From: Gammaproteobacteria bacterium
Lineage (GTDB): Bacteria; Pseudomonadota; Gammaproteobacteria; Steroidobacterales; Steroidobacteraceae
Assembly (NCBI GenBank): GCA_025357915.1
Contig: JANYLH010000044.1
Coordinates: 14,390 to 78,389, forward strand
Direction: 5' to 3'
DNA length: 64,000 bases
Part shown: piece by piece, positions 32,224 through 48,233 of the stretch
Layout of the letters: every line of letters begins with the position of its first letter
Position numbering within the stretch: position 1 is the stretch's first letter
Position numbers and translations under genes: made by a program
Notes under the pieces: generated by a model
Told to the model about the DNA's origin: nothing
What the model saw: only the letters and a program-made list of their open reading frames with translations
Database searches by the model: none

Positions 32224-32225
32224 TC

Positions 32226-32780
32226 ATGGCGGGCTACGAGAACGAACCGGTGGTCTTGAGTCGCGACGTCGAGGCCGTGATCGTCCCGGCCGGCACCGCG
32301 GTGACGCTCAAGGTCGGACTCGCCGGCTACATCACGCAGGCGCTGGGCGGGAGCTTCACGCTCTACATCGAAGGCAACCTCTATCGCATCGCCGGGGAGC
32401 AGGCCGACGCGATCGGCAAGGAGCCGGTCTCGGCGCCCGAACTCCCGCCGGGCGCCACCGAAGAGGACGTGCGCGAACTTGCCTGGGCGCAGATGCGCCG
32501 TTGCTATGACCCGGAAATCCCCGTCAACATCGTCGATCTCGGGCTGGTGTATGGCTGCGCCGTGACGCTGGCGCCGGACGGTACCCGCAAGCTCAGCGTC
32601 AGCATGACCCTCACCGCGCCCGGCTGCGGCATGGGCGAGGTGCTGGTGCGCGACGTGCGCGATAAGCTTGAGATGATTCCGACCGTAAGCGAGGCGGATG
32701 TGCAACTGGTGTTCGATCCGCCCTGGAGCCAGTCGATGATGTCCGAGGCAGCGAGACTACAGACTGGCATGATGTGGTAG
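32226..32780 (+). CDS. sufT: SufT-like Fe-S assembly protein (C-terminal DUF59/MIP18 domain)
   Basis: DPEIPVNIVDLGLVY...LTAPGCGMG is the DUF59 signature. The gene is last in the suf string. Confidence 0.75.
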   Translation: MAGYENEPVVLSRDVEAVIVPAGTAVTLKVGLAGYITQALGGSFTLYIEGNLYRIAGEQADAIGKEPVSAPELPPGATEEDVRELAWAQMRRCYDPEIPVNIVDLGLVYGCAVTLAPDGTRKLSVSMTLTAPGCGMGEVLVRDVRDKLEMIPTVSEADVQLVFDPPWSQSMMSEAARLQTGMMW

Positions 32781-34053: not shown

Positions 34054-36288
34054 ATGAGCGCGCTGCCAGGCCTGCTGCCGCGCCTGTGGCGTTTACGGCC
34101 GGGGCGCCGCTTTCTGCTCCGCCTGCTGCTCTCGGCGCTGCCACTCACGCTGCTGCTGCCGCATGCCTTCGGCCAGCTGCCGATCGGGTTTCTGCAGCGT
34201 TTCGAAAGTTACCTGTACGACGTCCGCGTCCGCTGGACCACGACGCCGGTTCGCGATCCGCGCGTCGTGATCGTCGACATCGACGAGGCGAGCCTCACGG
34301 CCGAGGGCGAGTGGCCGTGGTCGCGCGAGGTCTTCGCCCGACTGGTCGATCGCTTGTTCGACGACTACGGCGTGCGCGCGCTGGGCTTCGACGTCTTTTT
34401 TGCCGACCCGCAGCAGCCGGGTGCGCTCAGACTCCTCGACGAGCTCAGCCGGGGTTCACCGCCCGCGCTCGCCGCGCGCCTGGCCGGACTGCGGCCGCGC
34501 TTCGAGACCGACCGCGTCTTCGCCGAGGCGCTGATCGCCCGCGACACGGTGCTCGGTTACGTCTTCAAGCAGAAACTGCAGCCTGGGGACCGGCCTGAGA
34601 AGGGCCGGCTGCCGCGGGCGCAGCCGCTGTCGATGCCGCCCGGCGCGCGGCTGCTGCAGCCCGCTGGTTACGTCGCGAACCTCGGCGCACTGCAGGAGAA
34701 CGCCGCGGCCGGCGGCTTCTTTGACACCTCGCTGGTGGACGAGGACGGCGTGGTCCGCCGGATGCCCTTGCTCCAGTACTACGGTGGCCGGGTGTACGAG
34801 TCGCTGAGCCTCGCGCTGACGCGCCTGGCCCTGCACTCGCCGCCGCTGTCGCTCGGCATCGACCCGGCCACGGGCGCGTTGCAGGAAATCCATTTCGGCG
34901 AGCGGGTGGTACCGGTGGACCGTGCCGCCGCGGTGCTGGTGCCGTTCCGCGGACCGGTCGGCTCCTTTCCCTATGTATCGGTGACCCAGGTGCTGCACGG
35001 CACCGCGCCCGCAGCCACGCTCAAAGGCGCGATCGTGCTGGTGGGCGCGAGCGCTCCCGGGCTGCTGGACCTGCGTGCGACGCCGGTCGGCAAGGAGTAC
35101 ATCGGTGTGGAAGCGCACGCCAATGTGATCGCAGGGCTGCTGGACGGCACGATCCGTTACGTCCCGACCACGACGCCGTGGATCGAGGCCGGCACGCTGC
35201 TGCTGCTCGCGCTGCTGACCGCTGCGCTGCTGGCGCGTTCGCCACTCGCGGGAGTATTGACGGTCGCGGCGCTCCTCGCAGCGCTGTGCGCTGCCAATCT
35301 GCTCGCCTGGCAGCGCCTCGGAATCGTGCTGCCGCTCGCCTCGAGCCTGAGCTACGTGCTGGTCGCCGCACTGCTGCATCTCAACTACGGCTATTTCTTC
35401 GAGTCGCGCCGCAAGCGACGGCTCGGACGGCTGTTTGGGCAGTACGTCCCGCCAGAGGTCGTGCAGGATCTCGACGCCACCGAGACCGACATTTCGCTGG
35501 CCGGCGAGAGTCGCGTCATGAGCGTGCTGTTCTCGGACGTGCGCGGCTTCACGACCATCTCCGAGGGACTGGACCCGCGCTCGCTGAGCCAGTTCATGAA
35601 CGAGTTCCTGACGCCCATCACGGCCGTGATCCGCCGTCATCACGGCACCATCGACAAATACATGGGCGACGCCGTGATGGCCTTCTGGGGCGCGCCGCTC
35701 GCCGAGCCCGCCCACGCCGCGCGGGCCGTGCGTGCCGCCCTGGACATGGTCGCGTGCCTTGAGGGCGTCAACGCCAGCTGTCGCGCGCGCGGCTGGCCCG
35801 AGATCCGCATCGGCGTGGGCATCAGCTCCGGTCCCATGAACGTGGGCAACATGGGCTCCGAGTTCCGGATGGCCTACACGGTGCTCGGCGATACCGTGAA
35901 CCTGGGTTCACGGCTCGAGGGGCTCACGAAGGAATACGGCGTCGACATCATTGTCAGTGCCGCTACGGCCAGCGCGGTGCCGGAAATGGCTTTCCGGGAA
36001 CTGGACCTCGTGCGCGTCAAGGGCAAGCACGAGGCGATCGCGATCCTGGAGCCGCTCGGGCCGCGCGCCGGGCTGGCGCCCGCGACGCTCATCGCTTGCG
36101 AGGAGTTCACCGCCGTGCTTGTCGCCTACCGCAAGCGCGACTTCGCGGGCGCCGCGACGCGCTTGGCCGCACTGCGCGCACGCACGGATCATCGTCTATA
36201 CGAATTGTACGCGGCGCGGATCAGCGCTTACCTCGAGGCCCCGCCGCCGCCGGAGTGGGACGGAGTCTACACATTCACCAGGAAGTGA
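34054..36288 (+). CDS. CHASE2 sensor domain-containing class III adenylate/guanylate cyclase (adenylyl-type residues)
   Basis: An N-terminal TM is followed by CHASE2 (VVIVDIDEASLTAEGEWPWSREVFARLV) and three TMs. The cyclase domain has LFSDVRGFT, IDKYMGDAVMAFWG and YTVLGDTVNLGSRLE. Confidence 0.85.
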   Translation: MSALPGLLPRLWRLRPGRRFLLRLLLSALPLTLLLPHAFGQLPIGFLQRFESYLYDVRVRWTTTPVRDPRVVIVDIDEASLTAEGEWPWSREVFARLVDRLFDDYGVRALGFDVFFADPQQPGALRLLDELSRGSPPALAARLAGLRPRFETDRVFAEALIARDTVLGYVFKQKLQPGDRPEKGRLPRAQPLSMPPGARLLQPAGYVANLGALQENAAAGGFFDTSLVDEDGVVRRMPLLQYYGGRVYESLSLALTRLALHSPPLSLGIDPATGALQEIHFGERVVPVDRAAAVLVPFRGPVGSFPYVSVTQVLHGTAPAATLKGAIVLVGASAPGLLDLRATPVGKEYIGVEAHANVIAGLLDGTIRYVPTTTPWIEAGTLLLLALLTAALLARSPLAGVLTVAALLAALCAANLLAWQRLGIVLPLASSLSYVLVAALLHLNYGYFFESRRKRRLGRLFGQYVPPEVVQDLDATETDISLAGESRVMSVLFSDVRGFTTISEGLDPRSLSQFMNEFLTPITAVIRRHHGTIDKYMGDAVMAFWGAPLAEPAHAARAVRAALDMVACLEGVNASCRARGWPEIRIGVGISSGPMNVGNMGSEFRMAYTVLGDTVNLGSRLEGLTKEYGVDIIVSAATASAVPEMAFRELDLVRVKGKHEAIAILEPLGPRAGLAPATLIACEEFTAVLVAYRKRDFAGAATRLAALRARTDHRLYELYAARISAYLEAPPPPEWDGVYTFTRK

Positions 36289-36440
36289 GCTCGGGCGCGC
36301 ACCGACAGGGGCGCCCGGTTGCGATGAAAAACCTGCTGGCGCAAGATACGCCGTCTGCGCGGGCTTTCGGGCGGATGCTGGTCGAGCGTTGCGGCGTGCT
36401 GCAGCGACGGGCGGCGACAATCACTTGATCCGGGAGTCAA

Positions 36441-37784
36441 ATGCAGCCATCACCTCGCCGGCGCCGTAGCTGCTTCGCCTGCGCCGTATTCACCCTGATG
36501 GCAATGACGGGACTGGCCCGTGCCACTGCGCCCACCGACCTCGACCTGCTCCTGGCGCAGTGCCAGTCGCAGCTCGACGCTGGCCACAGCGCCGACGCCT
36601 ACTCCCTGCTTTCGGCACATGAAGCGGAATTCGGCGGCCTCGCCGCCTTCGACTACCTCTACGGCATGGCGGCGCTCGACAGCGGCCACGCTTCCGAGGC
36701 CGGCTTTGCCCTGGCCCGCGTGGTGGCGATCGAGCCTGACTTCGACGGCGCGCGCATGGAACTGGCCCGCGCCTACTACGCGAGTGGCGACTACGAGTCG
36801 GCCCGCACCCAGTTTGCCTTCTTGCGCGAGCGCAGCCCACCGGCGCCCGCGCGCGCGCTCATCGATCGCTACCTTGCCGCCATCGACGACCATGTGGCCG
36901 TCTTGCGCCCGCGCCTGGTACTGAATTTCGATGGCGGCGGCGGCTACGACTCCAACGCCAATGGCTCGACCGCCGACCGGCAATTTCTCGGGTTCAATCT
37001 CGACGCCCGCAATGTGGCTGCCTCGACCGCGTTTGCCGATGCGACCTTCAGCGCGAGCTACGTGCGCCCGCAGGGGCGCCGCCTCGGCTGGACGGGCGAT
37101 CTGGCCGCGAACCAGCGCTGGAACCCCGGCGCTCACTTCGTTGACCAGTCGCTCCTGTCCGGCGCGCTGGCACTGGCCGGGCGGTTCGGCGAATGGCGGA
37201 CCGCGCTCGGCGTCAACGGCTATTGGGCCGCGCTGGATGGCGCTGGCCACGAGTGGAGCGGCAACGTGCAGGCGCGGGCGACGCATCCGATGGGCGCGCA
37301 CTGGTCTGCGACCAGCAGCGTCTCGTACGGCGCGCTGCGCTACCTGGATGAACGCCTCAGCCTGCTGGAGGTCAACCGCTTGCTCGGGAGCGTGCGGATC
37401 GACCGCGGCGGCCTCGCCGCCGGCGGCATCCTCTCAGTGACGCTGCTCGCGGGCCATGACAACGCGCAACAGGTCAGTTCACCGTATGGGGGTGCCCGCT
37501 ACGGCGCGCGCGCCTCTTATGCCTGGCAGGCGGGGCCGCGCGTCCGCGCGGTCGTCGACGCTGGCGGCCTGCGCAGCCGCTACGCGGGTGGTGCCGGTTT
37601 CTTCGGCCTCGCACGGCGCGATACCCAGTACTCGGCGCTGGTGCTGCTCGACATCGACGGCGCGCCGGCCGCGGGCTGGCACGTACAGCCGCGCCTGCGC
37701 TACACGCAGAACGACTCCAATGTTTCGCTCTACGCCTACGATCGCTGGGAAGCCGGCATTTTCCTGCACCGGACCTTTCACTAG
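36441..37784 (+). CDS. TPR + C-terminal beta-barrel outer-membrane protein, Slam/DUF560 (type XI secretion)-like
   Basis: A signal peptide is followed by a TPR-like N-terminal region of about 130 aa. The remaining roughly 300 aa are Gly/Asn/Tyr/Arg-rich with alternating-pattern segments. The size (447 aa) and architecture match Slam proteins. Family assignment is by pattern only. Confidence 0.5.
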   Translation: MQPSPRRRRSCFACAVFTLMAMTGLARATAPTDLDLLLAQCQSQLDAGHSADAYSLLSAHEAEFGGLAAFDYLYGMAALDSGHASEAGFALARVVAIEPDFDGARMELARAYYASGDYESARTQFAFLRERSPPAPARALIDRYLAAIDDHVAVLRPRLVLNFDGGGGYDSNANGSTADRQFLGFNLDARNVAASTAFADATFSASYVRPQGRRLGWTGDLAANQRWNPGAHFVDQSLLSGALALAGRFGEWRTALGVNGYWAALDGAGHEWSGNVQARATHPMGAHWSATSSVSYGALRYLDERLSLLEVNRLLGSVRIDRGGLAAGGILSVTLLAGHDNAQQVSSPYGGARYGARASYAWQAGPRVRAVVDAGGLRSRYAGGAGFFGLARRDTQYSALVLLDIDGAPAAGWHVQPRLRYTQNDSNVSLYAYDRWEAGIFLHRTFH

Positions 37785-37801
37785 CCTCCACGGGAATCCT
37801 C

Positions 37802-39442
37802 ATGAGCGCACGCACCTGTCGCCGCACCGACCGCCGCCTCCAGATCCTGCTCAGGGTCATGGCGCTGCTCGCCTTCAGCCCCTGCGCGCTTGCCGCGCAG
37901 GCGGGCAAGATCGTATTCGTGGCCGGCAACGTAACGCTGGAGGCGAGCCACCGCCCGCTCCAGCGCGGCGACACACTCAACACCGGCGACACGGTCGTGA
38001 CTGCGGCGGGCGCCCGCGCGCAGCTCTTGATGGGCGACGGCGCGCGGATTGCACTGCGTTCGGGGTCGCGCTTTCGTATCGATGCGTTCGAGCTTGGCGC
38101 CGCGGTCAGGAACCCGGCGGCCACGGCGGTCGCGGCCTCGACCGGGCGGAGCCTGAGCACGCTGCTCAGCGGTGGTTTTCACACCGCCTCAGGCAGCATT
38201 GGCAAGGCAGATCCGTCCGCGTACGAGGTGCGCGTGCCGGTCGGCACGCTCGGCATCCGCGGCACCGACTACGTAGCGGTGTACTGCCGCAGCGATTGTA
38301 CCGATGCGCCAGGACTGAAGCCCGGTGAACCGGTAAGAGACGGCCTGTACCTTGGCGTCTACTCCGGCAGCATCGTGTTTCGCGGCGGTGACCTTGAAGT
38401 CGTGGTCGCGGCGGGCGAGTTCGTGTTCATACCGGTGCCCGAACTCAAACCCGAACGGCTCCAGCTGCCACCGGCGCCGATAGTCGGCGACGGTGCCGGA
38501 CCACTCGACCTGGCAGGCGCCACCGCGGGCGTGCAGGCGCGCCCCGCCGGCAAGCACTCGGGTTTCGGTGATTCCGGCGGGGGTCATGGCCCGGCTTCCC
38601 CCGTCACGGAGCCGCCGCCGCCAGCCAACGGCACGGTCCAGCCGGTGGGCGGATCGGTGAACGGCGTGCCGATCGATCTGACGCCGGGCCAGCTGCCCAC
38701 ACGCAACGATTCCACCTGGATAACCGGCCCGGTGCGCGGCCTGTTCAGTCCCGGCAGCAACGCCGCGGCCACGACGCAGTATGGCTTTGGCGGTACAGGC
38801 GGCGGCGCCACCGTGCTGCCCGTGCTGGGCGATGCGGGGGCCGCTTTGCTGCAGATCGGCACAGCCACCGCCAGCGAGTCGGGGTTCGATGCCGCGACCG
38901 GACTGCGCTGGGGTCGCTGGAGCGGCGGCAGCGTCAACCTCGTCACCGCAACCGGCGGCAGCGTGCCGGTGCCGCTCGGGAGCGACAGCGTGCACTGGGT
39001 TGCCGGAAGCGGCTACGTCGATGCTGCCATCCCGGTGCTGCCGGTCAGCGGCACGGCGACTTACAACCTCGCAGGCGCCACCCGCCCGACCGACGGCCTG
39101 GGCAACCTCGGCACACTCAACAGCCTTAAGCTGACCGCCGACTTCAGCGCGAACGCAGTGACCGCAGCCCTGGCGCTGACCATCGCCAACGTGGACTGGA
39201 TCGCCAGCGGCAACGGCTTCATCCTCGCGGGCTCGAAGACGACTGGCCCACAGTTCAACGGCGCGTTCGGCGCGCCCTCGATAGGCGGCTCCACGCAATT
39301 GGGCGGTGGCGGCCAGTTCAGCGGCTTCTTCAGCAATGTGCCCGGACAGGTATCGGGCGCGCCTGGCGCAGCCGGCATCTCCTATACCCTGTTCGCGCCA
39401 GGGGCTGGCACTGTATCGGGTGCAGCGGCACTCAGCCGATGA
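37802..39442 (+). CDS. secreted FecR-domain protein with TbpB/fHbp-like C-terminal 8-strand-barrel motif (candidate Slam cargo)
   Basis: It has a signal peptide and a FecR domain (GKIVFVAGNVTLEASHRPLQRGDTLNTGDTVVTAAGARAQLLMGDGARIALRSGSRFRI). The C-terminus reads GTATYNLAG...LTADFSANAVTAAL...GQFSGFF...GAAGISYTLF, like TbpB-type barrel domains. Confidence 0.6.
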   Translation: MSARTCRRTDRRLQILLRVMALLAFSPCALAAQAGKIVFVAGNVTLEASHRPLQRGDTLNTGDTVVTAAGARAQLLMGDGARIALRSGSRFRIDAFELGAAVRNPAATAVAASTGRSLSTLLSGGFHTASGSIGKADPSAYEVRVPVGTLGIRGTDYVAVYCRSDCTDAPGLKPGEPVRDGLYLGVYSGSIVFRGGDLEVVVAAGEFVFIPVPELKPERLQLPPAPIVGDGAGPLDLAGATAGVQARPAGKHSGFGDSGGGHGPASPVTEPPPPANGTVQPVGGSVNGVPIDLTPGQLPTRNDSTWITGPVRGLFSPGSNAAATTQYGFGGTGGGATVLPVLGDAGAALLQIGTATASESGFDAATGLRWGRWSGGSVNLVTATGGSVPVPLGSDSVHWVAGSGYVDAAIPVLPVSGTATYNLAGATRPTDGLGNLGTLNSLKLTADFSANAVTAALALTIANVDWIASGNGFILAGSKTTGPQFNGAFGAPSIGGSTQLGGGGQFSGFFSNVPGQVSGAPGAAGISYTLFAPGAGTVSGAAALSR

Positions 39443-39452
39443 GCCCGCGCCA

Positions 39453-41861
39453 TTGCTGACCGAGCGCGTCTCGATCGCAGTGATCGGCGCCGGCCCGGCC
39501 GGCCTTTCGGCCGCGGCCCACGCCGCCGACCTTGGCATCCCGCACCTGCTGCTCGAGGCGAGTCCGGGTCACGCCAACACCATCCGTAAATACCAGAAGG
39601 GCAAGCACGTCATGGCCGAGCCAGGGGCGCTGCCGCTGCGCAGCCCCCTGCCGTTTGCGGCCGCGGTCCGTGAGGCCGTGCTCGAGGGCTGGGACGCCGG
39701 ACTCGCGGCGCATCGCGTCAATGTCCGCTACGGCGCCGAGGCGGTCGCCATCAGCGGCTCGCGCCCGCAATTCCAGATCGCGTTGAAGGATGGCAGCGTG
39801 GTCCACGCCGAGTGCGTCGTGCTTGCAATCGGCGTGCAGGGAAATCCGCGCAAGTTGGGCGTGTCCGGCGAAGACCTGGCTTGCGTGCAATACCAGCTCG
39901 ACGATGCCGACGCCTATCGCGACGAGGCCATCGTCGTCGTCGGCGCCGGCGATGCCGCGATCGAGAACGCGCTGGCGCTGTCGAAGCGTAACCGCGTCTG
40001 CCTGGTGAACCGTGCCGCCGAGTTCTCGCGCGCCAAGGAAGGCAACCTGAGCGCGGTGCTCAAGGCAATCGAAGCCGGCACGCTCAGCTGCTTCTTCAAG
40101 AGCTCCTGTGCGCGCATCGAGGCCAGTGCCGGCGCGCAGCGAGGTTATCGCCTGACGCTCGACACCGATACCGGCGAGGCCAGCGTCGCGTGCGACCGGA
40201 TCATCGCCCGGCTCGGGGCCATCCCGCCGCGGCAATTTCTCGAGGCCTGCGGTGTCGGGTTCCCGGGGCCGCAGCCGACCGCGCTGCCTATCCTGTCCGA
40301 CCAGTACGAGTCGAGCGTGCCCGGGCTGTACGTGGTCGGTGCGCTCGCTGGCTATCCGCTGATCAAGCAGGCGATGAACCAGGGCTATGAGGCGGTCGAG
40401 TACAGCCGCGGGCGCGCTGTGGAGCCGGCCGACGAGCCGATCCTGCGCGAGCGGTTCGCACCGCTCCCCTTCGGCCTGACGGTCGCCGGCACGCTGGCGT
40501 TGATCCGCGAGCGCGTGCCGCTGTTCGCGGAGGTGAACCCGTTGCTGCTGCGCGAGCTGGTGCTGGGCAGCGAAGTCCACGCACCCGCGTCCGGCACCGT
40601 GCTGTTCCGCAAGAACGACTACACCAATTCGTTTTACACGATCATAAATGGCGGCGTCGACATGGAACTCGGCGACGAGGGCCAGCAACGCATAGCACTG
40701 CGCCAGGGTCAGTTCTTCGGCGAGGGGAGTCTGCTGTCCGGCCGTCGGCGCGCCGGCAGCGCGCTGGCCGGCGCCGGCTGCGTGGTGCTGGAGACGCCGC
40801 GCCGCGAGATCCTCAAGCTCATGAGCTCGGTCGACGGGGTCCGGCGCGTGGTCGACGAGCTGTTCATCATCCGCGCGATCCAGTCAAGCTTCGCGACCGA
40901 CGCCTCCTTCGACGAACTGCGCACGGTCGCCGCCGGCGCGCGGCTCAACCGCTACCGGCCGGGCGAGATGCTGTTCGAGGAAGGCGCGGTCGCCGACTGC
41001 CTGCACCTGGTGCGGAGCGGTTCGGTCGCGGTATTGCGCCAGCTCGGCGGGCGCGACGTCGTTACGTCGTATGTTGCCGCGGGCAACTATGTCGGCGAGA
41101 TCGGCCTGCTGGGCCGCACGCGGCGTACGGCGAGCGTGCGGGCGAACGTCGCCACCGAGACCGTGAGCATTGACGCCGCCGCCTTCGACCAGCTGCTGGC
41201 GCGCAACGCGGCGCTGCGCGAGCGCATCCAGGACACCATCCGTGAGCGGCTGGCCGCGAACGCGCGCATGCAGGGCCAGACCCAGGCGGGCGACCTGATC
41301 TCGTTTCTGATGCAGCAGGGCCTGGGGGAGGCCACCGACGTGCTGCTGATCAACGAGTCGCTGTGCGTGGGCTGCGACAACTGCGAGAAGGCCTGCGCCG
41401 AAACGCACGGCGGCACCTCGCGCCTCGACCGCGGGGCCGGGCCGAGCTTCGCGCAGGTGCACGTACCCACCTCCTGCCGGCACTGCGAGGACCCGCACTG
41501 CATGACCGATTGCCCGCCGGACGCGATCCGGCGCGCACCGGACGGCGAGGTGTACATCCGCGACAACTGCATCGGCTGCGGCAACTGCGAGCGCAACTGC
41601 CCGTACGGCGTGATCCAGATGGCCGCCGCGACGCCTGCCAAGCCCCCGCTGCTGGCGTGGCTGCTGTTGGGAAGCGGTCCCGGGCCCGGCGGCGTGGCCG
41701 GCGCGCCCGCCGACCCGCAAGCCGCGAAGAAGGCCGTGAAATGCGACATGTGCAAGGACCTGGGCGGCGGCCCCGCCTGCGTCCGCGCCTGCCCGACGGG
41801 CGCCGCGATCCGCATCAGTCCCGAGCGCTTCGTCGAGCTCGCCCATGGCAGCGATGTCTAG
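39453..41861 (+). CDS. fusion protein: FAD/NAD(P)-binding oxidoreductase + two cyclic-nucleotide-binding domains + four-cluster [4Fe-4S] ferredoxin (DmsB/NrfC-like)
   Basis: VIGAGPAGLSAA (FAD), VVVGAGDAAIENA (NAD(P)) and GLYVVGALAG are present. The cNMP motifs are FFGEGSLL... and YVGEIGLLGRTRRTASVRA. The Cys motifs are CVGCDNCEKAC, CRHCEDPHCMTDCP, CIGCGNCERNCP and CDMCKDLGGGPACVRACP. The start (TTG 39453) is inferred and uncertain. Confidence 0.8.
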   Translation: MLTERVSIAVIGAGPAGLSAAAHAADLGIPHLLLEASPGHANTIRKYQKGKHVMAEPGALPLRSPLPFAAAVREAVLEGWDAGLAAHRVNVRYGAEAVAISGSRPQFQIALKDGSVVHAECVVLAIGVQGNPRKLGVSGEDLACVQYQLDDADAYRDEAIVVVGAGDAAIENALALSKRNRVCLVNRAAEFSRAKEGNLSAVLKAIEAGTLSCFFKSSCARIEASAGAQRGYRLTLDTDTGEASVACDRIIARLGAIPPRQFLEACGVGFPGPQPTALPILSDQYESSVPGLYVVGALAGYPLIKQAMNQGYEAVEYSRGRAVEPADEPILRERFAPLPFGLTVAGTLALIRERVPLFAEVNPLLLRELVLGSEVHAPASGTVLFRKNDYTNSFYTIINGGVDMELGDEGQQRIALRQGQFFGEGSLLSGRRRAGSALAGAGCVVLETPRREILKLMSSVDGVRRVVDELFIIRAIQSSFATDASFDELRTVAAGARLNRYRPGEMLFEEGAVADCLHLVRSGSVAVLRQLGGRDVVTSYVAAGNYVGEIGLLGRTRRTASVRANVATETVSIDAAAFDQLLARNAALRERIQDTIRERLAANARMQGQTQAGDLISFLMQQGLGEATDVLLINESLCVGCDNCEKACAETHGGTSRLDRGAGPSFAQVHVPTSCRHCEDPHCMTDCPPDAIRRAPDGEVYIRDNCIGCGNCERNCPYGVIQMAAATPAKPPLLAWLLLGSGPGPGGVAGAPADPQAAKKAVKCDMCKDLGGGPACVRACPTGAAIRISPERFVELAHGSDV

Positions 41862-42744
41862 CATTCACGAGTCGGCCCTCGCCTACCGCGGGCGCCGCTA
41901 CCTGTGGGTCGCGCTGGCACTGACGGCAGCCTCCGTGCTCGCCTACGCGTGGCACTCGCCAGCCGTACCGCCGAACGGCGGCACCTGGCTGGGCTATACG
42001 CTGGGCACGGTCGCCGCGCTACTGATCCTGTTGCTGCTGGCGCTCGGCATCCGCAAGCGCAGCTACCACTCGACGCTCGGCACCGTCAGCGGCTGGGTAT
42101 CGGCGCACGTATACCTGGGGCTGGCACTGGTCGTGGTGGCCACGCTTCACACCGGGTTTCACTTCGGCCGCAACGTGCACACGCTCGCCTACGTGCTGAT
42201 GTGTCTGGTCATCGCACTGGGCATCGTCGGCGTCGTGCTGTACGCGCGCTACCCGGCCCGCATGAGCGTCAACCGCCAGGGGCGCGCACGCGCGCAACTC
42301 GTGGAAGAGGTCAACGATCTCAATGCCCGCGCACTGCGCGTCGCGCAACCGCTGCCCGCGGAATTCCTGGCGGCGGTGCGCAGCGCGCGCGACCGGCTGG
42401 TGCTCGGCGGCAACGCCTGGACGCTGCTCACCGGCCGCGACCGCTCCCGCGTCGTGCTGCCAGGGAGCGACGGCGCCAGCGCGCCGCTCGCCAACCCCTT
42501 TCAGGCGACGCTGATCGCCTGGCTTGGCGACCGCCTCGCGCGCTGCCAGGACGGCGAGGTGGCGCCGCGCATTCAGAGCCTGCTCACGCTCATCAGCGCC
42601 CAGCGGGTCGCAATCGAGCGCCTCAAACGCGACCTCGCCTTCCAGGCGCGGCTCGACGCCTGGCTGTATTTGCACGTGCCGTTGTCCTTCGCGTTGCTGG
42701 CCGCGCTCCTGGCGCATGTCGTCAGCGTGTTCCTGTACTGGTAA
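41845..42744 (+). CDS. integral membrane protein with two HX13H motifs (putative di-haem b, ferric-reductase/NOX-like transmembrane electron carrier)
   Basis: About five hydrophobic helices by eye. His88/His102 sit in helix 3 and His277/His291 in the last helix, each pair separated by exactly 13 residues. It overlaps the upstream gene by 17 nt. Confidence 0.7.
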   Translation: MAAMSSIHESALAYRGRRYLWVALALTAASVLAYAWHSPAVPPNGGTWLGYTLGTVAALLILLLLALGIRKRSYHSTLGTVSGWVSAHVYLGLALVVVATLHTGFHFGRNVHTLAYVLMCLVIALGIVGVVLYARYPARMSVNRQGRARAQLVEEVNDLNARALRVAQPLPAEFLAAVRSARDRLVLGGNAWTLLTGRDRSRVVLPGSDGASAPLANPFQATLIAWLGDRLARCQDGEVAPRIQSLLTLISAQRVAIERLKRDLAFQARLDAWLYLHVPLSFALLAALLAHVVSVFLYW

Positions 42745-42754: not shown

Positions 42755-44464
42755 GTGCGTACCCTGATCCGCTTCGTCAGCCGCGCCACAGGCGGTGCCG
42801 TCGAGACCAGCGAGCGGCTCTTCGATGGCGAGGCGCTCACTCTCGGCCGCGCCACCGACCAGGTGCTGCAGTTCAAGGACGGACGTGTGGCATTCCAGCA
42901 CGCGCGGATCTTCCGGCGGGGCAGCCGCGTGCTGCTCGCCTGCCGCGCGCCGGCGACCGTCATCGTCAACGACGCATTGGTGCGCGAGGCGGAGTTGTCG
43001 CTGGGCGACGTACTGCGTCTGGGCGCAAACGTACTCACGCTCATCGAGCCGCCCGCCGGCGCCGATCTCGCGCTGACCTTCGAGCTCGATCCGGCTGCGT
43101 CCGAGGCGGAACTCGCGACGGTCAATGCACCGCTCCTGCTCTCGGGCGGGCGGCTCGGCAAGCGCGGCTGGTCCTGGCTGCTGTTTCTCACACTGCTGGG
43201 CGCGTTCCTCGTGCTGCCGGTATTGGTGTTGCCTGCGAAGTCCACCCGCGAGGCGCTGCGCGCGAGCTGGCTGCCGAGCGATCACGCCTATTCGCCCGGC
43301 GCGCTGCACTCGGTGCACCAGACGATCGGCGGTCGCTGCGAGGCGTGCCACCAGCAGGCCTTCGTCCGGGTACGCAACGAGGCGTGCCTCGCCTGCCACG
43401 CGACGGAACTGCATCGGCACGTCGACGCGGGCAGCCCACGGGCGCGTGCAGTGGAGCAGATGCGCTGCCTTGCCTGCCATTCCGGCCACGAACCCGCGCC
43501 GTTGCTGCGCAGCGGCTCCGGCGGCTGCGTCGCTTGCCACGCTGACGTCTCGCTCGCCGGCGACCCGCACCGCCTCGGTGCCGTCAGCGACTTCGGTCGC
43601 GCGCACCCGGAGTTCCGCGTCACCTTGCTGCGCCCGGACGCCGCCGGCATCGCTGGCGCGAGTGAGCGGGCGCGCCTCGATGCGCCCGCGCTGCGCGAGC
43701 ACTCGCACCTCAAGTTCTCGCACGCGCAGCACCTCGATCCGCGGGGAGTCAAGACGCTGGACGGGCGCCGGGTGCTCGGCTGTGCCGATTGCCACGTGCC
43801 CGAGCCCGGCGGCGGGCGCATGTTGCCGATCCGCATGGCGGCGCACTGCCAGAGCTGCCACCGGCTCGACTTTGACCCGGCGTTCCCGGACCGCCAGCTG
43901 CCGCACGGCGATGTGACCGGGGCGGTGAACACGCTGTTCGAATACTACAGCGCACGCTACCTGGAGGGCTGGCCGGATCCGAACGCGCGAGCGTCCGCCG
44001 GGCGCTTCGCGGCGACGCCTGGACCCGCGCTGGCACCGGCCGAGCGTGAGCGCCGGCTCGGCCTCGCACGCACGCGCGCCGCAGTGGTCGCGCGTGACCT
44101 CATCGAGCGGCGCGCCTGCGTCGTGTGTCATGAAGTACGCGTGGTCGCGGACGCGGCGCTGCGCTGGCAGGTCACGGCAGTACGGCTCACGCACGCCTGG
44201 TTCCCGGCTGCGCGGTTCGATCACGCGCAGCACACCACTACGCTGACGCCGTGCTCCTCGTGCCACGACGCGGCACATTCCACACAGTCCGCGGACGTGC
44301 TCATGCCACGCATCGCGACCTGCCGTCGCTGTCACGCGGGGAGCGGCGGCGCGGCGCCGCCCGCCGGCAAGGTGGCGACCGGATGTCCGGCCTGCCATGC
44401 GTTCCACGACCCGCGGCGCGCGCCCTGGGTTCCGGTGGCGCAGCCAACGGATCCGGGACGGTGA
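42755..44464 (+). CDS. FHA domain - single TM - decahaem c-type cytochrome (cytochrome c3/c7-like)
   Basis: An N-terminal FHA-like fold (LTLGRATDQVLQFKDGRVAFQHARI...VIVNDALV...LSLGDVLRLGANVL) is followed by a TM (WSWLLFLTLLGAFLVLPVLVLPA). Ten CXXCH motifs follow: CEACH, CLACH x2, CVACH, CADCH, CQSCH, CVVCH, CSSCH, CRRCH and CPACH. GTG start at 42755. Confidence 0.85.
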   Translation: MRTLIRFVSRATGGAVETSERLFDGEALTLGRATDQVLQFKDGRVAFQHARIFRRGSRVLLACRAPATVIVNDALVREAELSLGDVLRLGANVLTLIEPPAGADLALTFELDPAASEAELATVNAPLLLSGGRLGKRGWSWLLFLTLLGAFLVLPVLVLPAKSTREALRASWLPSDHAYSPGALHSVHQTIGGRCEACHQQAFVRVRNEACLACHATELHRHVDAGSPRARAVEQMRCLACHSGHEPAPLLRSGSGGCVACHADVSLAGDPHRLGAVSDFGRAHPEFRVTLLRPDAAGIAGASERARLDAPALREHSHLKFSHAQHLDPRGVKTLDGRRVLGCADCHVPEPGGGRMLPIRMAAHCQSCHRLDFDPAFPDRQLPHGDVTGAVNTLFEYYSARYLEGWPDPNARASAGRFAATPGPALAPAERERRLGLARTRAAVVARDLIERRACVVCHEVRVVADAALRWQVTAVRLTHAWFPAARFDHAQHTTTLTPCSSCHDAAHSTQSADVLMPRIATCRRCHAGSGGAAPPAGKVATGCPACHAFHDPRRAPWVPVAQPTDPGR

Positions 44465-46434
44465 AGCGCGCATCGGCCTGTCTCGCTCCACTGGCGGCGC
44501 TGACGTTGTCGGCCTGTGGCGGTGGGGGCGAAGTCGCTTCGGGTGTGCCCACAAGCCCGCCGCCCCCGGGCCTGGTCTGTACCGGCCAGTGCGCGAATGC
44601 CCTCACGCTGCTGTCGCAGGCGGACGTGGAGCGCACGATCGCGCAGGCGGTCGCCGAGGCGCAGGCCCGCGGCGCGCACGCCACCGTCGCGGTTGTCGAC
44701 CGCGTTGGCAACGTGCTCGGTGTGTTCCGCATGAATGGCGCGGCGAATACCGTCACGATCGGGTCGGGACTGGCCACAGGCGGTCTCGAGAACGTCACGA
44801 TTGTCCCTGACACAGTCGCGGCCATCGCCAAGGCCGTGACGGCGGCATACCTGTCGAGCGAAGGCAATGCGTTCTCGACCCGCACAGCGAGTCAGATCGT
44901 GCAGGAGCATTTCAATCCGGGCGTAGCGCTGGCGCCGGGCGGTCCGCTGTTCGGCGTGCAGTTCAGCCAGCTGCCCTGCTCCGATCTGATGGCGCGGGCG
45001 GGAGCCGCGCCCGCCCCTGGCCCGCAGCGCTCGCCGCTGGGCCTCGCGGCGGATCCGGGTGGCCTGCCGCTCTACAAGGCCGGCACGCCGGTGGGCGGCG
45101 TGGGCGTAATCGCCGATGGCCGCTACGGGCTGGATCGCAACGTGCTCGACACGGACGTGGATCTGGACGAAACGATCGCGCTCGCCGCGACCTTTGGGCT
45201 CGCGGCGCCCGACGATCGCCGCGCCGACCGGATCACGGCTGATGGCAGGACGCTGCGTTTCAGCGATGCGACGGTGGCGACGCTCGCCAGTGCGCCCGCT
45301 GCTGCGCCGTCATTCGCGTCCCTGGACGGCGTCGCGGGTCACCTGCTTGCAGTGCCCGGCTACGGCGCAGCGACGACGCGCGCGGGCCTCGCGTATGGCA
45401 CGAGCGCCTCGGGCATCCGCTCCGATGCCAGCGACTACCCGGGACTCGACGCGCAGGTGCTGGTGGACGCGAGCGATGCGCCCCGCTATCCGCCGCGCGC
45501 CGGCAGCGAAACCTCGGGTGCACTGAGTGCGACCGAAGTGCGCGAGATCCTGCGCGCGGCACTCGGCGTGGCGAACCGCACCCGCGCCCAGATCCGCCTG
45601 CCGCTTGGCTCGCAGGCGCGCGTCACCGTCAGCGTCGTCGACAGTCAGGGTGTAGTCCTCGGAATAGCCGCTATGCGCGACGCACCGGTATTCGGCGTCG
45701 ACGTCTCGCTGCAAAAGGCGCGCTCGAGCGCGTTCACGAGCTCGGCGGCCGCGGCCGCGGCACTCGCGGCTGCGCCCGATGCGGTCTATCTCGACGGTGG
45801 ACTGAGTGTGCTCGCGCGGGTGCCACTGGCCAGCTACGTGACGGCGACGCGCGCATTCCTGGGGTTGCCAGCAGCGCTCGGCGACGGCGGCGTCGCCTTC
45901 AGCGCGCGCGCGCTGGGCAACATGGCGCGACCGTTCTATCCCGACGGCGTCGACGGCACCCATGCCGGACCCTGGTCCAGGCCGGCCGCGGCGTGGAGCC
46001 CGTTCAGCACCGGCTTACAGCTGGATCTGGTTTATAACGCCCTGGTGCAGCATGTCGCCTTCGTGCTTGGCGCGGCACCCGACGTGGGCTTCAGTTGCAC
46101 CGGTGTCAGCGGCTTTGACACCGGCTTTGCTCCCGCCGCGCCCATCCCGGCGCTCGCCAATGGCCTGCAGATCTTTCCGGGCGGCGTGCCGATCTATCGG
46201 GACCACACGCTGGTCGGCGCGATCGGCGTGTCAGGCGATGGCGTCGACCAGGATGACATGATCGGCTTCCTGGGCGTCGATAGCGCCGCGCAACGCCTCG
46301 GCGGCTTCGGCAATGCGCCGCCCGACCTGCGCAGCGACACGCTGGTGCCGCGCGGCGCGCGCTTGCGCTATGTCGGCTGCCCGGTGGCACCGTTCCTCGA
46401 CTCGTCGACGCAGGACGAGTGCAGTGGCCGCTAG
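44461..46434 (+). CDS. lipoprotein with two GlcG/HbpS-like (DUF336, haem-binding/degrading fold) domains
   Basis: A lipobox (LTLSAC). Domain 1 reads LSQADVERTIAQAVAEAQARGAHATVAVVDRVGNVLGVF...GGLPLYKAGTPVGGVGV. Domain 2 reads VTVSVVDSQGVVLGIAAM...GGVPIYRDHTLVGAIGVSGDGVDQDDMI. GTGA overlap with the upstream stop. Confidence 0.7.
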   Translation: MKRASACLAPLAALTLSACGGGGEVASGVPTSPPPPGLVCTGQCANALTLLSQADVERTIAQAVAEAQARGAHATVAVVDRVGNVLGVFRMNGAANTVTIGSGLATGGLENVTIVPDTVAAIAKAVTAAYLSSEGNAFSTRTASQIVQEHFNPGVALAPGGPLFGVQFSQLPCSDLMARAGAAPAPGPQRSPLGLAADPGGLPLYKAGTPVGGVGVIADGRYGLDRNVLDTDVDLDETIALAATFGLAAPDDRRADRITADGRTLRFSDATVATLASAPAAAPSFASLDGVAGHLLAVPGYGAATTRAGLAYGTSASGIRSDASDYPGLDAQVLVDASDAPRYPPRAGSETSGALSATEVREILRAALGVANRTRAQIRLPLGSQARVTVSVVDSQGVVLGIAAMRDAPVFGVDVSLQKARSSAFTSSAAAAAALAAAPDAVYLDGGLSVLARVPLASYVTATRAFLGLPAALGDGGVAFSARALGNMARPFYPDGVDGTHAGPWSRPAAAWSPFSTGLQLDLVYNALVQHVAFVLGAAPDVGFSCTGVSGFDTGFAPAAPIPALANGLQIFPGGVPIYRDHTLVGAIGVSGDGVDQDDMIGFLGVDSAAQRLGGFGNAPPDLRSDTLVPRGARLRYVGCPVAPFLDSSTQDECSGR

Positions 46435-48226
46435 CGCAACTCGCGCCTGCGCGTGCGCGCTGGCCCTCGCCGGTGCGGGTCTTGCCACCGGCGTGGTCCG
46501 CGCCGGAGACGGGAGCACGACCGCGCCCTGCCCGCCCGAGTCCCCGGTCGCGGCCGAACGCAAGGCACCGGCGGTACCCGAGCTGCCCGGCTTCGCGCCC
46601 ACGCCGTGCAATCCGGCCGCGCTACCCCCACCGCGCGCGGACCAGCCGGGGACGCTCGCCGGGCTCCCGGATCGCTGGCGCATGGTCTCGACGCTGGGGT
46701 ACCCCGAGCGGCTCCACGACCCCTACCACGGCAACAACTGGTTGAAGGGCGATCGCCCGGCGTTCGGTGCTGACTGGTTCGTCAACCTCGCGGCGGTCGC
46801 GGATACCGTCGTCGAGCCCAGGCGCTTCCCGCTGCCAGTCGGCAACGTCGTCACCGAACGCCCGGGGAGCCTCGACGCCTACGGGCACGGCGCGAGCCAG
46901 CTCTATGCCCAGACCCTCGCCTTCGAGGCCGTCCTCTATCAGGGCGATACCGTATTCAAGCCGCCGGAGTGGGAGTTTCGCCTCACGCCCGTCTTCAGCG
47001 TCAATCGTGTCGAGGTAGGCGAGCGCGGCCTGGTGAACGCCGCCGCAGGCGCGCCGCTGTCGCGCACCGACACGGCGCTCGGGCTGCAGGCGGCGTTCGT
47101 CGATCGCCATCTGCGCAATGTTTCCGCGCACTACGATTTCGACAGCCTGCGCGTCGGCATCCAGCCGGTGACCGCGGACTTCCGCGGCTTCCTCTACACG
47201 GATGCGGCGCTAGGCGTGCGGCTGTCTGGCAACCGGGCCAACAATCGCTACCAGTACAACTTGGGTTGGTTCCGTCGCCTGGAGAAGGACACCAATTCCG
47301 GACTCAACGACGTGTTCGCTCGTGGCCTCGCCTCACTGCGCCATGACAGCGTAGTGCTCGCCAACCTGTACGCGCAGGACACGCCACTGCCCGGTTTCAC
47401 CTCGCAACTGGTGGTGGCGTACAACCGCAACCGGGAAGGCGGCGAACTACGCTACGACGGCAACGGCGCGCTGCAGCGTCCGGCGCAAATCGGTGATGGC
47501 CGCGGCCGCGACTACCAGGTGACCTACCTCGGCGTCAACGGCGATGGCCATGTCGGCGTGCTCAACGCGACCATTGCCGGCTACTTCGTATTCGGGCACG
47601 AATCGCGCGGCACCTTCGCCGCCGCCGCAGACCAGGTGCGCGCCTTCTTCGCAGCCGCCGAAGTGTCGCGCGACTGGGACTGGCTACGGGTCCGCGCTTC
47701 GATCGCGCTGCAGAGCGCCGATCACGATCCATTCGACCGGCGTGCCACCGGGTTCGATGCGATTGTAGAGAACCCGTTGTTCGCCGGCGCCGATACCAGT
47801 TTCTGGATCCGTCAGCCGGTGCCACTGATTGCCGGCGGCGGCGTATCACTGTCGGGTCGCAACGGCCTGCTCAGCTCGTTGCGCTCCTCGAAGGAATTCG
47901 GCCAGTCCAACTTCACCAACCCGGGACTGCAGCTGGTTGGCGTCGGCGCCGACGCGGACCTCACGCCGACGCTGCGGGTCAGCGCGAACGCCAACGACCT
48001 GCGCTTTGGCGACACGGCGGTGCTCGAGGTGGCGCGCGCGCAGGCATCGATCCCAAGACGCATCGGGCTCGACCTCTCGCTCGCGCTCAGCTGGCGTCCC
48101 CTCGCCACGCAGAACGTGGTCGCACGCCTGTCGGCCGCGAAGCTGCTGCCGGGCAGCGGCTGGAAAACGCTTTATGGCGGCGAGCAGGGCTATTCCATTC
48201 TCGGCAACCTGATACTGAGCTACTGA
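46424..48226 (+). CDS. putative outer-membrane beta-barrel protein (unassigned family)
   Basis: A signal peptide (ACACALALAGAGLATGVVRAGD). It contains abundant alternating aromatic/polar stretches such as YQYNLGWFRRLEKD, YQVTYLGVNGDGHVGVLNATIAGYFVFG and LDLSLALSWRPL. The C-terminus is aromatic (NLILSY). The GTG start at 46424 overlaps the upstream gene. Confidence 0.55.
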   Translation: MAASATRACACALALAGAGLATGVVRAGDGSTTAPCPPESPVAAERKAPAVPELPGFAPTPCNPAALPPPRADQPGTLAGLPDRWRMVSTLGYPERLHDPYHGNNWLKGDRPAFGADWFVNLAAVADTVVEPRRFPLPVGNVVTERPGSLDAYGHGASQLYAQTLAFEAVLYQGDTVFKPPEWEFRLTPVFSVNRVEVGERGLVNAAAGAPLSRTDTALGLQAAFVDRHLRNVSAHYDFDSLRVGIQPVTADFRGFLYTDAALGVRLSGNRANNRYQYNLGWFRRLEKDTNSGLNDVFARGLASLRHDSVVLANLYAQDTPLPGFTSQLVVAYNRNREGGELRYDGNGALQRPAQIGDGRGRDYQVTYLGVNGDGHVGVLNATIAGYFVFGHESRGTFAAAADQVRAFFAAAEVSRDWDWLRVRASIALQSADHDPFDRRATGFDAIVENPLFAGADTSFWIRQPVPLIAGGGVSLSGRNGLLSSLRSSKEFGQSNFTNPGLQLVGVGADADLTPTLRVSANANDLRFGDTAVLEVARAQASIPRRIGLDLSLALSWRPLATQNVVARLSAAKLLPGSGWKTLYGGEQGYSILGNLILSY

Positions 48227-48233
48227 CAGAGCG

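What the first reader, a model, noticed from the sequence alone, without database searches (positions are those of the whole stretch)
34054..41861. Second-messenger logic: adenylyl-type cyclase and a cNMP-binding redox enzyme in one co-directional gene string
Seen: in the cyclase domain, the purine-specifying positions read Lys (IDKYMGD) and Thr (AYTVLGDTVN). Established: in class III cyclases Lys plus Asp/Thr specifies ATP (the Thr variant defines subclass IIIb), whereas Glu plus Cys/Ser/Arg specifies GTP. The product is therefore predicted to be cAMP. About 3.2 kb downstream on the same strand, with only short gaps, lies the flavo-FeS protein with two cNMP-binding domains. Inference: an envelope signal sensed by CHASE2, possibly via the FecR cargo, would raise cAMP. 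The cAMP would then act directly on the electron-input enzyme of the cytochrome cluster. This would be post-translational gating rather than CRP-type transcriptional control.
Basis: partly seen in the sequence, partly recalled or inferred. Interest (0 to 1): 0.62.

Follow-up and report, generated by a model that had tools for sequence, protein, structure and literature searches.

The report
Envelope-sensing cAMP cyclase beside cNMP-binding redox enzyme
A membrane sensor that makes cAMP is encoded next to an iron-sulfur flavoenzyme carrying two cAMP-type receptor domains, and this sensor lineage stays with the enzyme's cytochrome gene cluster through several gene rearrangements, so the signal may switch the electron pathway directly, though this is untested.

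Summary
Gene 34054-36288 encodes a CHASE2-sensor class III cyclase. All seven catalytic residues are present, and Lys535 and Thr609 sit at the purine-specifying positions, the pattern of subclass IIIb adenylyl cyclases. After gaps of 152, 17 and 10 nt come three more genes: an outer-membrane TPR + 14-strand barrel protein, a FecR-domain protein, and an 802-aa flavin / 2x cNMP-binding / 4x[4Fe-4S] protein ("CNBox"). CNBox heads a cytochrome cluster.

- Every cluster-linked CHASE2 cyclase I sampled falls in one clade (SH-aLRT 99). That clade excludes 21 unlinked homologues of similar identity.
- Members of the clade sit by the cluster in at least four gene arrangements.
- Unrelated cyclases occasionally occupy the same position.

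Three findings limit the claim.
- Most CNBox clusters (Lysobacterales, other Pseudomonadota classes) have no cyclase nearby, yet keep intact cNMP-binding motifs.
- The CHASE2 cyclase family is far more widespread than CNBox.
- This genome also encodes a CRP orthologue, CpdA, a second cyclase and three further non-Crp/Fnr cNMP-binding proteins.

Direct cAMP gating of CNBox is therefore a reasonable but unproven inference. The cyclase/FecR/TPR trio and the cytochrome cluster type are each already described. I found no paper that links them.

The parts
34054..36288 (+). CHASE2-sensor class IIIb adenylyl cyclase (744 aa): N-terminal TM, periplasmic CHASE2, TM bundle, cytoplasmic catalytic domain
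   Evidence: Pfam CHASE2 193.6 bits and Guanylate_cyc 74.9 bits. PDB alignments to CyaB 3R5G and CyaC 1WC1. Belongs to the cluster-linked cyclase clade.
35656..35658 (+). Codon of Lys535, purine-specifying residue (IDKYMGD)
   Evidence: Conserved in all 26 cyclases compared.
35878..35880 (+). Codon of Thr609, second purine-specifying residue (AYTVLGD), the subclass IIIb signature
36441..37784 (+). Outer-membrane protein: signal peptide, periplasmic TPR helices (about 32-153), 14-strand beta-barrel (158-446)
   Evidence: Pfam TPR_19. AF2 model with pLDDT 86. Foldseek hits to BcsC, CymA and OmpG barrels. Conserved after the cyclase in 16+ loci.
37802..39442 (+). Secreted FecR-domain protein (546 aa)
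   Evidence: Pfam FecR 33.5 bits. Conserved between the TPR-barrel gene and CNBox.
39453..41861 (+). CNBox: TrxR-like FAD/NAD(P)H flavoprotein + two cNMP-binding domains + four-cluster [4Fe-4S] ferredoxin domain (802 aa)
   Evidence: Pfam and NCBIfam. More than 6000 homologues of about 800 aa. Identical to database protein P0003.
40707..40769 (+). Phosphate-binding cassette of cNMP domain A (GQFFGEGSLLSGRRRAGSALA)
   Evidence: Aligned to the PKA regulatory subunit cassette. Family consensus FGEMSLLSGRRRSAT.
41082..41144 (+). Phosphate-binding cassette of cNMP domain B (GNYVGEIGLLGRTRRTASVRA)
41845..42744 (+). DUF4405-like polytopic membrane protein (candidate dihaem b carrier)
   Evidence: Weak Pfam DUF4405 hit. 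Always follows CNBox. DUF4405 proteins were shown to bind haem b (PMC11334425).
42755..44464 (+). FHA-domain, membrane-anchored multihaem cytochrome c
   Evidence: Pfam FHA, Cytochrom_c3_2 and Paired_CXXCH. Third member of the invariant trio.
44461..53272 (+). Rest of the cluster: tandem HbpS-like protein, barrel protein, 1246-aa multihaem cytochrome, c554-like cytochrome
   Evidence: Pfam and NCBIfam. Conserved order in most loci.

Best explanation
The three genes 34054-39442 encode a relay that spans the cell envelope. It consists of an outer-membrane TPR-barrel, a periplasmic FecR-domain protein and an inner-membrane CHASE2 receptor whose cytoplasmic class IIIb domain makes cAMP. This cyclase lineage is dedicated to the cytochrome cluster that follows it. 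The most likely local receiver is CNBox, the only cNMP-binding protein found on this contig and the first gene of the cluster. In CNBox, two PKA-like cNMP domains sit between an NAD(P)H/FAD module and a four-cluster Fe-S module.

I propose that cAMP binding changes how well electrons pass from the flavin to the Fe-S chain, and from there to the DUF4405 membrane haem protein and the periplasmic and outer cytochromes. An extracytoplasmic cue would then tune electron flow at the protein level.

Shown: the gene content, the catalytic and ligand-binding motifs, the barrel fold (predicted) and the conserved linkage of this cyclase clade with the cluster. Inferred: the product cAMP, its binding to CNBox, the direction of the effect, the nature of the cue, and the direction of electron flow.
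For: - Catalytic residues D495, K535, D539, R605, T609, N616 and R620 are present and conserved in all orthologues. The domain aligns with the adenylyl cyclases CyaB and CyaC.
- Junctions of 17, 10 and -17 nt place TPR-barrel, FecR, CNBox and DUF4405 in one likely transcription unit.
- cyc-TPR-FecR lies directly upstream of CNBox in 25 of 67 resolvable loci. These span Woeseiaceae, Steroidobacteraceae and allies. On the CNBox tree the pattern needs one gain and one loss.
- Other arrangements keep the link. The module sits after the last cytochrome gene in L081. It is inverted between CNBox and DUF4405 in both cluster copies of G195. It is divergent from DUF4405 and followed by HbpS in G090.
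- All 20 cluster-linked cyclases form one clade (SH-aLRT 99). The clade excludes 21 unlinked CHASE2 cyclases of 44-50% identity, including the second copy in the same genome as L081.
- Non-orthologous cyclases sit directly upstream of CNBox in two loci: a GAF-GAF-PAS cyclase in L014 and a distant CHASE2 cyclase in L042.
- CNBox-positive genomes are enriched for CHASE2 cyclases: 13 of 17 against 86 of 384, odds ratio 11, not tree-corrected.
- Both cNMP cassettes are canonical and conserved across the family. The tandem aligns as a unit with PKA regulatory subunits.
- No CRP-type box lies within 32-42 kb.
- The genome has the cAMP phosphodiesterase CpdA, so cAMP turnover is plausible.
Against: - No binding or activity data exist for any member.
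- Most CNBox clusters have no cyclase within 10 kb yet keep intact cNMP motifs. This covers all 42 rows of the sister clade on the CNBox tree (mostly Lysobacterales), 10 of about 15 genomes in the even class sample, and 11 of 12 loci from other classes. The CNB domains therefore do not depend on this cyclase.
- The CHASE2 cyclase family is common, in about 98 of 401 genomes, and is usually unlinked.
- cAMP diffuses, and the genome has other possible receivers: a CRP orthologue, two Crp/Fnr-type proteins, a kinase-CNB protein and a CNB-rhodanese protein.
- The published precedent for CHASE2 cyclases, S. meliloti, signals through a CRP-type regulator (PMC5498481, PMC13001267).
- The upstream linkage needs only one gain on the tree, so part of the conservation is simple inheritance.
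- The AF2 model of CNBox is too poor in the Fe-S part to show a gating geometry.
Confidence: 0.5

Rival explanations
1. The module makes cAMP, but the main output is transcriptional, through the CRP orthologue, as in S. meliloti Clr. CNBox merely samples the global cAMP pool or is regulated independently. The adjacency reflects co-expression of a sensor with the operon it helps to regulate.
For: A CRP orthologue with the RSAWVR cassette lies on contig C76. CpdA is present. S. meliloti CHASE2 cyclases act via Clr, and FecR-domain and TPR proteins are Clr targets (PMC5498481). CNBox in most lineages has no dedicated cyclase.
Against: No TGTGA-N6-TCACA-like site with 2 or fewer mismatches lies between 32 and 42 kb. 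This reading does not explain why the first enzyme of the cluster always carries two intact cNMP domains. It also does not explain why the linked cyclase clade tracks the cluster itself through rearrangements.
Confidence: 0.22
2. Information flows the other way. The TPR-barrel/FecR/CHASE2 relay monitors the state of the conduit, for example its redox load, its metal substrate or its assembly. It reports this to the cell as cAMP, and CNBox is at most a feedback target.
For: The module is found at either end of the cluster or inside it, next to periplasmic and outer-membrane components and not always next to CNBox. In G090 the cyclase sits between DUF4405 and HbpS, while CNBox lies on another, short contig. 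Another S. meliloti cyclase, CyaC, responds to respiratory-chain redox state (abstract of PMC10463352).
Against: There is no direct evidence. This reading overlaps with the best explanation, since feedback onto CNBox would still be cAMP gating.
Confidence: 0.15
3. The linkage has no signalling meaning. The CNB domains of CNBox bind no cyclic nucleotide, serving a structural role or binding another ligand. The module's neighbourhood is inherited gene order plus chance.
For: One gain and one loss suffice for the upstream arrangement. Three CNBox genomes showed no class III cyclase at all, though they are MAGs and may be incomplete. Some Crp/Fnr-fold domains bind other ligands (general knowledge).
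Against: Canonical FGE...R[ST]A cassettes are conserved at 45-100% identity across classes. Linkage survives at least four rearrangements within one cyclase clade. Independent cyclase types sit at the same position. In the cyclase-anchored sample, 3 of 3 clade members were linked against 0 of 17 outside the clade.
Confidence: 0.08

Closest known systems
Sinorhizobium meliloti NsrA - CyaD1/CyaD2/CyaK - Clr pathway (PMC5498481, PMC13001267)
   Same: CHASE2-domain class III cyclases are activated from outside the cell through an outer-membrane beta-barrel protein. FecR-domain and TPR proteins belong to the same circuit. The product is cAMP.
   Different: There the receiver is a CRP-type transcription factor and the output is control of plant infection. 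Here the neighbouring receiver candidate is a redox enzyme at the head of a cytochrome cluster. Sequence relatedness of the TPR-barrel to NsrA was not tested.
CHASE2 adenylate cyclase / phosphodiesterase / FecR outer-membrane protein / TPR protein cluster of Campylobacterota (PMC9239204)
   Same: The same trio of CHASE2 cyclase, FecR-domain protein and TPR protein, clustered and proposed to act in one pathway.
   Different: No phosphodiesterase gene lies in this locus; CpdA is on another contig. That paper mentions no link to a cNMP-binding oxidoreductase or to cytochromes.
ptdABCDEFG putative porin-cytochrome cluster (bioRxiv 10.1101/2023.11.21.568154)
   Same: It contains an FAD/NAD(P) oxidoreductase, a cNMP-binding protein with 4Fe-4S clusters, a ferric-reductase-like membrane protein, a decahaem cytochrome and a porin. 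Its function is unknown.
   Different: There the flavoprotein and the cNMP/Fe-S protein are separate genes; here they are fused. The accessory genes differ (HbpS-like, large propeller cytochrome). No cyclase is described. The comparison rests on the paper's description only, not on sequence.
[4Fe-4S] protein / 5-TM protein / FHA-nonahaem cytochrome module of Ferrigenium straubiae (bioRxiv 10.64898/2026.01.22.701106)
   Same: An Fe-S protein, a polytopic membrane protein and an FHA-anchored multihaem cytochrome are encoded together.
   Different: The paper mentions no cNMP domains and no cyclase. It proposes electron flow inward, from Fe(II) oxidation to quinone.
Class IIIb adenylyl cyclases P. 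aeruginosa CyaB (3R5G) and Spirulina CyaC (1WC1)
   Same: The catalytic domain aligns at E 6e-29 and 2.5e-28 with identical Lys/Thr, Asp/Asp and Asn/Arg residues.
   Different: The sensor domains differ: MASE2 in CyaB (from knowledge) against CHASE2 here.
cAMP-regulated enzymes such as the mycobacterial acetyltransferase Pat
   Same: A cNMP-binding domain is fused to an enzyme and controls it allosterically (from knowledge). The CNB region hits the NCBIfam Pat model at 61.9 bits, below its 460-bit cut-off.
   Different: The regulated activity here would be electron transfer in a flavo-Fe-S protein. I found no characterised example of that.

Membership tests
Class III nucleotide cyclase, subclass IIIb (adenylyl) | Catalytic domain PF00211 above the gathering score | tested here: met
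   74.9 bits against a cut-off of 21.9.
Class III nucleotide cyclase, subclass IIIb (adenylyl) | Two metal-binding Asp, plus transition-state Asn and Arg | tested here: met
   D495, D539, N616, R620 and R605 are aligned to CyaB and CyaC.
Class III nucleotide cyclase, subclass IIIb (adenylyl) | Lys plus Thr at the purine-specifying positions | tested here: met
   K535 and T609 align to the Lys and Thr of CyaB (3R5G) and CyaC (1WC1). The guanylyl cyclase Cya2 (2W01) shows Glu and Gly at these positions.
Class III nucleotide cyclase, subclass IIIb (adenylyl) | Makes cAMP from ATP | not testable with these tools
   Needs an enzyme assay.
CHASE2 receptor | Extracytoplasmic CHASE2 domain between transmembrane segments | tested here: met
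   PF05226 at 193.6 bits, residues 57-402 of the ORF translation that starts at 34012. Hydrophobic segments before and after were read from the sequence.
CHASE2 cyclase / FecR / TPR signalling cluster (Campylobacterota, S. meliloti) | FecR-domain protein and TPR protein encoded beside the CHASE2 cyclase | tested here: met
   The TPR protein also has a 14-strand barrel.
CHASE2 cyclase / FecR / TPR signalling cluster (Campylobacterota, S. meliloti) | cAMP phosphodiesterase in the cluster (Campylobacterota version) | tested here: not met
   Pfam scans of the neighbouring ORFs I examined found none. CpdA lies on contig C36.
CHASE2 cyclase / FecR / TPR signalling cluster (Campylobacterota, S. meliloti) | Output through a CRP-type regulator (S. 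meliloti version) | tested here: inconclusive
   A CRP orthologue exists on C76. No CRP-like box lies near the locus. No functional data.
Cyclic-nucleotide-binding (CNB) effector | CNB fold with phosphate-binding cassette G-E ... R-[STA]-A | tested here: met
   PF00027 at 113.9 bits in two stretches. Cassettes align to PKA-R and CRP and are conserved across the family.
Cyclic-nucleotide-binding (CNB) effector | Binds cAMP or cGMP and changes the activity of the attached module | not testable with these tools
   Needs binding and activity assays.
ptd-type cytochrome cluster | Flavoprotein, CNB/Fe-S protein, ferric-reductase-like membrane protein, decahaem cytochrome and porin encoded together | tested here: inconclusive
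   The domain content matches the published description. No Ptd sequence was available to compare.

The most novel reading that the evidence does not exclude
An outer-membrane-to-cytoplasm relay (TPR-barrel, FecR protein, CHASE2 cyclase) reads an extracellular cue, such as the availability of an insoluble electron acceptor or donor. Through cAMP it then directly opens or closes a quinone-independent conduit from NAD(P)H to the cell surface, by acting on the flavo-Fe-S entry enzyme. This would be the first second-messenger-gated respiratory-type electron-transfer enzyme, and a new class of bacterial cAMP effector.
Probability: 0.3. Interest if true: 0.85.

Novelty: new variant of a known kind. 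Interest (0 to 1): 0.64.

Why it matters
Nearly all known bacterial cAMP outputs are transcriptional (CRP family). A few enzymes and channels are the exceptions. A cAMP receptor built into the entry enzyme of a multihaem, probably trans-envelope, electron pathway would add fast, protein-level control of electron flow.

It would also give a handle on an uncharacterised cluster family that is widespread in sediment and soil Gammaproteobacteria, including Woeseiaceae and Steroidobacteraceae, groups known to be abundant in sediments (from knowledge). The comparative result here makes the idea testable: one cyclase clade tracks the cluster. The parts list is short (catalytic domain, CNB tandem, CNBox), and cultured bacteria carry the unlinked version.

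Tried and rejected
- AF2 model of CNBox from 20 sequences: pLDDT 66, and below 50 in the Fe-S part, so I drew no conclusion on domain geometry.
- CRP-box search (TGTGA-N6-TCACA, up to 2 mismatches): 6 hits in the window against 12.9 expected, and none within 32-42 kb.
- Sigma-70 promoter scan of 32.5-42.5 kb: no hits. Terminator-like hits were not above background.
- Search with the CNB/Fe-S half alone, to reach split PtdE-like proteins: it returned only close full-length relatives. The relation to ptd therefore rests on the paper's description.
- Sequencing runs: only DNA sediment metagenomes hold the stretch and no RNA run does, so co-transcription could not be checked.
- The idea that CNBox depends on the CHASE2 cyclase in general: rejected. 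16 of 30 CNBox genomes without an adjacent module gave no hit to this cyclase at E<=1e-10. Most of those still have some other class III cyclase; 22 of the 25 such genomes rescanned with PF00211 do.
- The idea that CNB cassettes differ between cyclase-linked and unlinked CNBox: rejected, as the motifs are the same.
Full report
**What is there**

The + strand of 33-53 kb carries a tight gene string.

| Coordinates | Product |
|---|---|
| 33252-34043 | LigB-like dioxygenase |
| 34054-36288 | CHASE2 class III cyclase |
| 36441-37784 | TPR protein |
| 37802-39442 | FecR-domain protein |
| 39453-41861 | CNBox: 802-aa protein with a TrxR-like FAD/NAD(P)H module, two cNMP-binding domains and a four-cluster 4Fe-4S ferredoxin module |
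| 41845-42744 | DUF4405-like membrane protein |
| 42755-44464 | FHA-domain multihaem cytochrome |
| 44461-46434 | Tandem HbpS-like protein |
| 46424-48226 | Barrel-like protein |
| 48234-51974 | 1246-aa multihaem cytochrome |
| 51932-53272 | c554-like cytochrome |

From the cyclase onward, the first four junctions are +152, +17, +10 and -17 nt. SUF Fe-S assembly genes lie just upstream.

**Check of the observation**

I aligned the domain to solved structures.
- Lys535 and Thr609 fall on the substrate-specifying Lys and Thr of the class IIIb adenylyl cyclases CyaB (3R5G) and CyaC (1WC1).
- The guanylyl cyclase Cya2 (2W01) has Glu and Gly at the same two columns.
- The two metal-binding Asp (D495, D539), the phosphate-binding Arg (R605) and the transition-state Asn and Arg (N616, R620) are all present.
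- The same seven residues occur in all 26 related cyclases compared.

The CNBox tandem aligns as a unit with PKA regulatory subunits, and singly with CRP, PKG and HCN domains. Both phosphate-binding cassettes are canonical.

**The sensor module**

A 17-sequence alignment gave a confident model of the TPR protein, with pLDDT 86. It has a signal peptide, TPR helices and a 14-strand beta-barrel. Foldseek matched it to BcsC, CymA and OmpG barrels. The module therefore spans the envelope: an outer-membrane barrel with a periplasmic TPR arm, a secreted FecR-domain protein, and the inner-membrane CHASE2 cyclase.

This trio has been noted before.
- In Campylobacterota it occurs as a conserved cluster, there with a phosphodiesterase (PMC9239204).
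- In S. meliloti, the outer-membrane barrel NsrA activates the CHASE2 cyclases CyaD1, CyaD2 and CyaK, which signal through the CRP-like regulator Clr. A FecR-domain protein and a TPR protein are Clr targets (PMC5498481, PMC13001267).

**Test of co-occurrence, anchored on CNBox**

CNBox belongs to a large family, with more than 6000 proteins of about 800 aa. I fetched 80 loci from species-representative genomes and compared them by tblastn.
- CNBox-DUF4405-FHA-cytochrome is always together. HbpS, the barrel protein and the large cytochrome usually follow.
- cyc-TPR-FecR lies directly upstream in 25 of 67 loci with enough flank. All 25 carry Woeseiaceae, Steroidobacteraceae or allied labels.
- On the CNBox tree this pattern needs one gain and one loss. 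The 42-row sister clade, mostly Lysobacterales, has none.
- Of 30 genomes without the adjacent module, five have a full-length CHASE2 cyclase elsewhere. Sixteen gave no hit to this cyclase at E<=1e-10.
- I rescanned 25 of them that lack a full-length CHASE2 cyclase with PF00211; 22 still have some class III cyclase.

**Arrangements that keep the link**

- In the genome of L027, the module follows the last cytochrome genes on the same strand (L081).
- In G195, which has two copies of the cluster, the module is inverted between CNBox and DUF4405 in both copies (L088 and L089).
- In G090, the cyclase is divergent from DUF4405-FHA-cytochrome and is followed by HbpS (L101).
- In L014, a GAF-GAF-PAS cyclase sits about 1.5 kb upstream of CNBox. 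In L042, a distant CHASE2 cyclase and a glutamate dehydrogenase gene precede CNBox.

**Test anchored on the cyclase**

In an even sample of 401 genomes of the class, about 98 carry a full-length CHASE2 cyclase. Only about 17 carry a full-length CNBox. The cyclase family is therefore generic.

A tree of 44 CHASE2 cyclases puts all 20 cluster-linked ones, apart from the distant L042, in one clade with SH-aLRT 99. These are the 16 upstream cases plus L081, L088, L089 and L101. The clade excludes 21 unlinked cyclases of similar identity, including the second copy in the same genome as L081. Among loci fetched from the cyclase search alone, the three that fall in this clade are all linked, and none of the 17 outside it is.

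CNBox-positive genomes are enriched for CHASE2 cyclases: 13 of 17 against 86 of 384, odds ratio 11, p = 6e-6. This test is not corrected for phylogeny.

In other Pseudomonadota classes the CNBox trio persists at 44-48% identity. Only 1 of those 12 loci has a cyclase domain within 10 kb.

**What this means**

One CHASE2 cyclase lineage is a conserved partner of this cytochrome cluster, and it has stayed beside it through at least four rearrangements. That is good evidence for a functional link.

The cNMP cassettes of CNBox are equally intact whether or not a cyclase is linked. Cyclic-nucleotide sensing therefore looks like a property of the whole family, with the source of the nucleotide varying between lineages.

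CNBox is the only cNMP-binding protein found on this contig. Its CNB tandem lies between the flavin and Fe-S modules. Direct cAMP control of electron entry is the simplest mechanism consistent with this.

It is not shown, however. The genome also has:
- a CRP orthologue;
- two further Crp/Fnr-type proteins;
- a kinase-CNB protein;
- a CNB-rhodanese protein;
- a second cyclase, fused to an FHA domain;
- CpdA.

cAMP made here could therefore act elsewhere. I found no CRP-like box near the locus, which is weak negative evidence. The reverse direction, in which the relay reports the state of the conduit, is also open.

**Relation to published work**

The cluster type resembles the in-silico 'ptd' operon, which has separate flavoprotein and cNMP/Fe-S genes (bioRxiv 10.1101/2023.11.21.568154). 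It also resembles the Fe-S / membrane protein / FHA-nonahaem module of Ferrigenium straubiae (bioRxiv 10.64898/2026.01.22.701106). DUF4405 proteins bind haem b (PMC11334425). None of these papers mentions a cyclase. A full-text search combining CHASE2, cytochrome, cNMP-binding, adenylate cyclase and Fe-S found no paper.

Earlier notes of this scan report the same pairing in other genomes, including Verrucomicrobia. I did not test those cases, and I treat them as leads only.

**Verdict**

The parts are ordinary members of known families. The new element is the conserved pairing of a dedicated envelope-sensing adenylyl cyclase with a cNMP-binding redox enzyme. I give the direct-gating mechanism about 0.5.

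Noticed in passing
own genome contig C17:42803-43273 (-), outside the window: The genome's only other class III cyclase is a 315-aa soluble protein fused to an FHA domain. The cluster's multihaem cytochrome (42755-44464) also carries a cytoplasmic FHA domain. In the cyclase domain a His replaces the transition-state Asn. Similar short cyclases are the sole class III cyclase in three CNBox genomes that lost the CHASE2 module (G001, G002, G004). In L010 a cyclase similar to this one lies about 9 kb upstream of CNBox.
   Followed up: partly
window 29220-32780 (+): SUF Fe-S assembly genes lie just upstream of the locus: a SufBD core protein, a SufS-type class V aminotransferase and a protein with an FeS_assembly_P domain. 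The cluster that follows has a heavy Fe-S and haem demand.
   Followed up: no
L089:4833-11588 (-) in G195: In one of the two cluster copies of G195, a 2251-aa protein made of cadherin-like and Ig repeats follows the FecR gene of the inverted module. It could be a surface partner of the relay.
   Followed up: no
L014:4737-7058 (+): A GAF-GAF-PAS class III cyclase, an architecture I recall from cyanobacterial CyaB1, occupies the position upstream of CNBox in an Acidibacter MAG. That MAG belongs to the subclade that lost the CHASE2 module. A 506-aa ORF with no Pfam hit lies between the two genes.
   Followed up: partly
L042 / L109 (G046:C63): A distant CHASE2 cyclase (32% identity) is followed by a glutamate dehydrogenase gene and then by CNBox-DUF4405.
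   Followed up: no
window 51932-53272 (+) and loci L110, L112, L115, L117, L120, L122, L123: In cyclase-less loci, the gene that most often flanks CNBox upstream is the c554-like multihaem cytochrome. It is either divergent or co-directional. In the window the same gene sits at the far end of the cluster.
   Followed up: no
L021 and L007 (record titles): Two MAG records that carry this cluster are titled Klebsiella pneumoniae and Rheinheimera tuosuensis. Their CNBox sequences nest inside the Steroidobacteraceae-type clades. The taxonomic labels are probably wrong.
   Followed up: no
G216:C4:140623-142872 (-): In one genome of the class sample, CNBox is split over three adjacent reading frames. 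This suggests a frameshifted or decaying copy.
   Followed up: no
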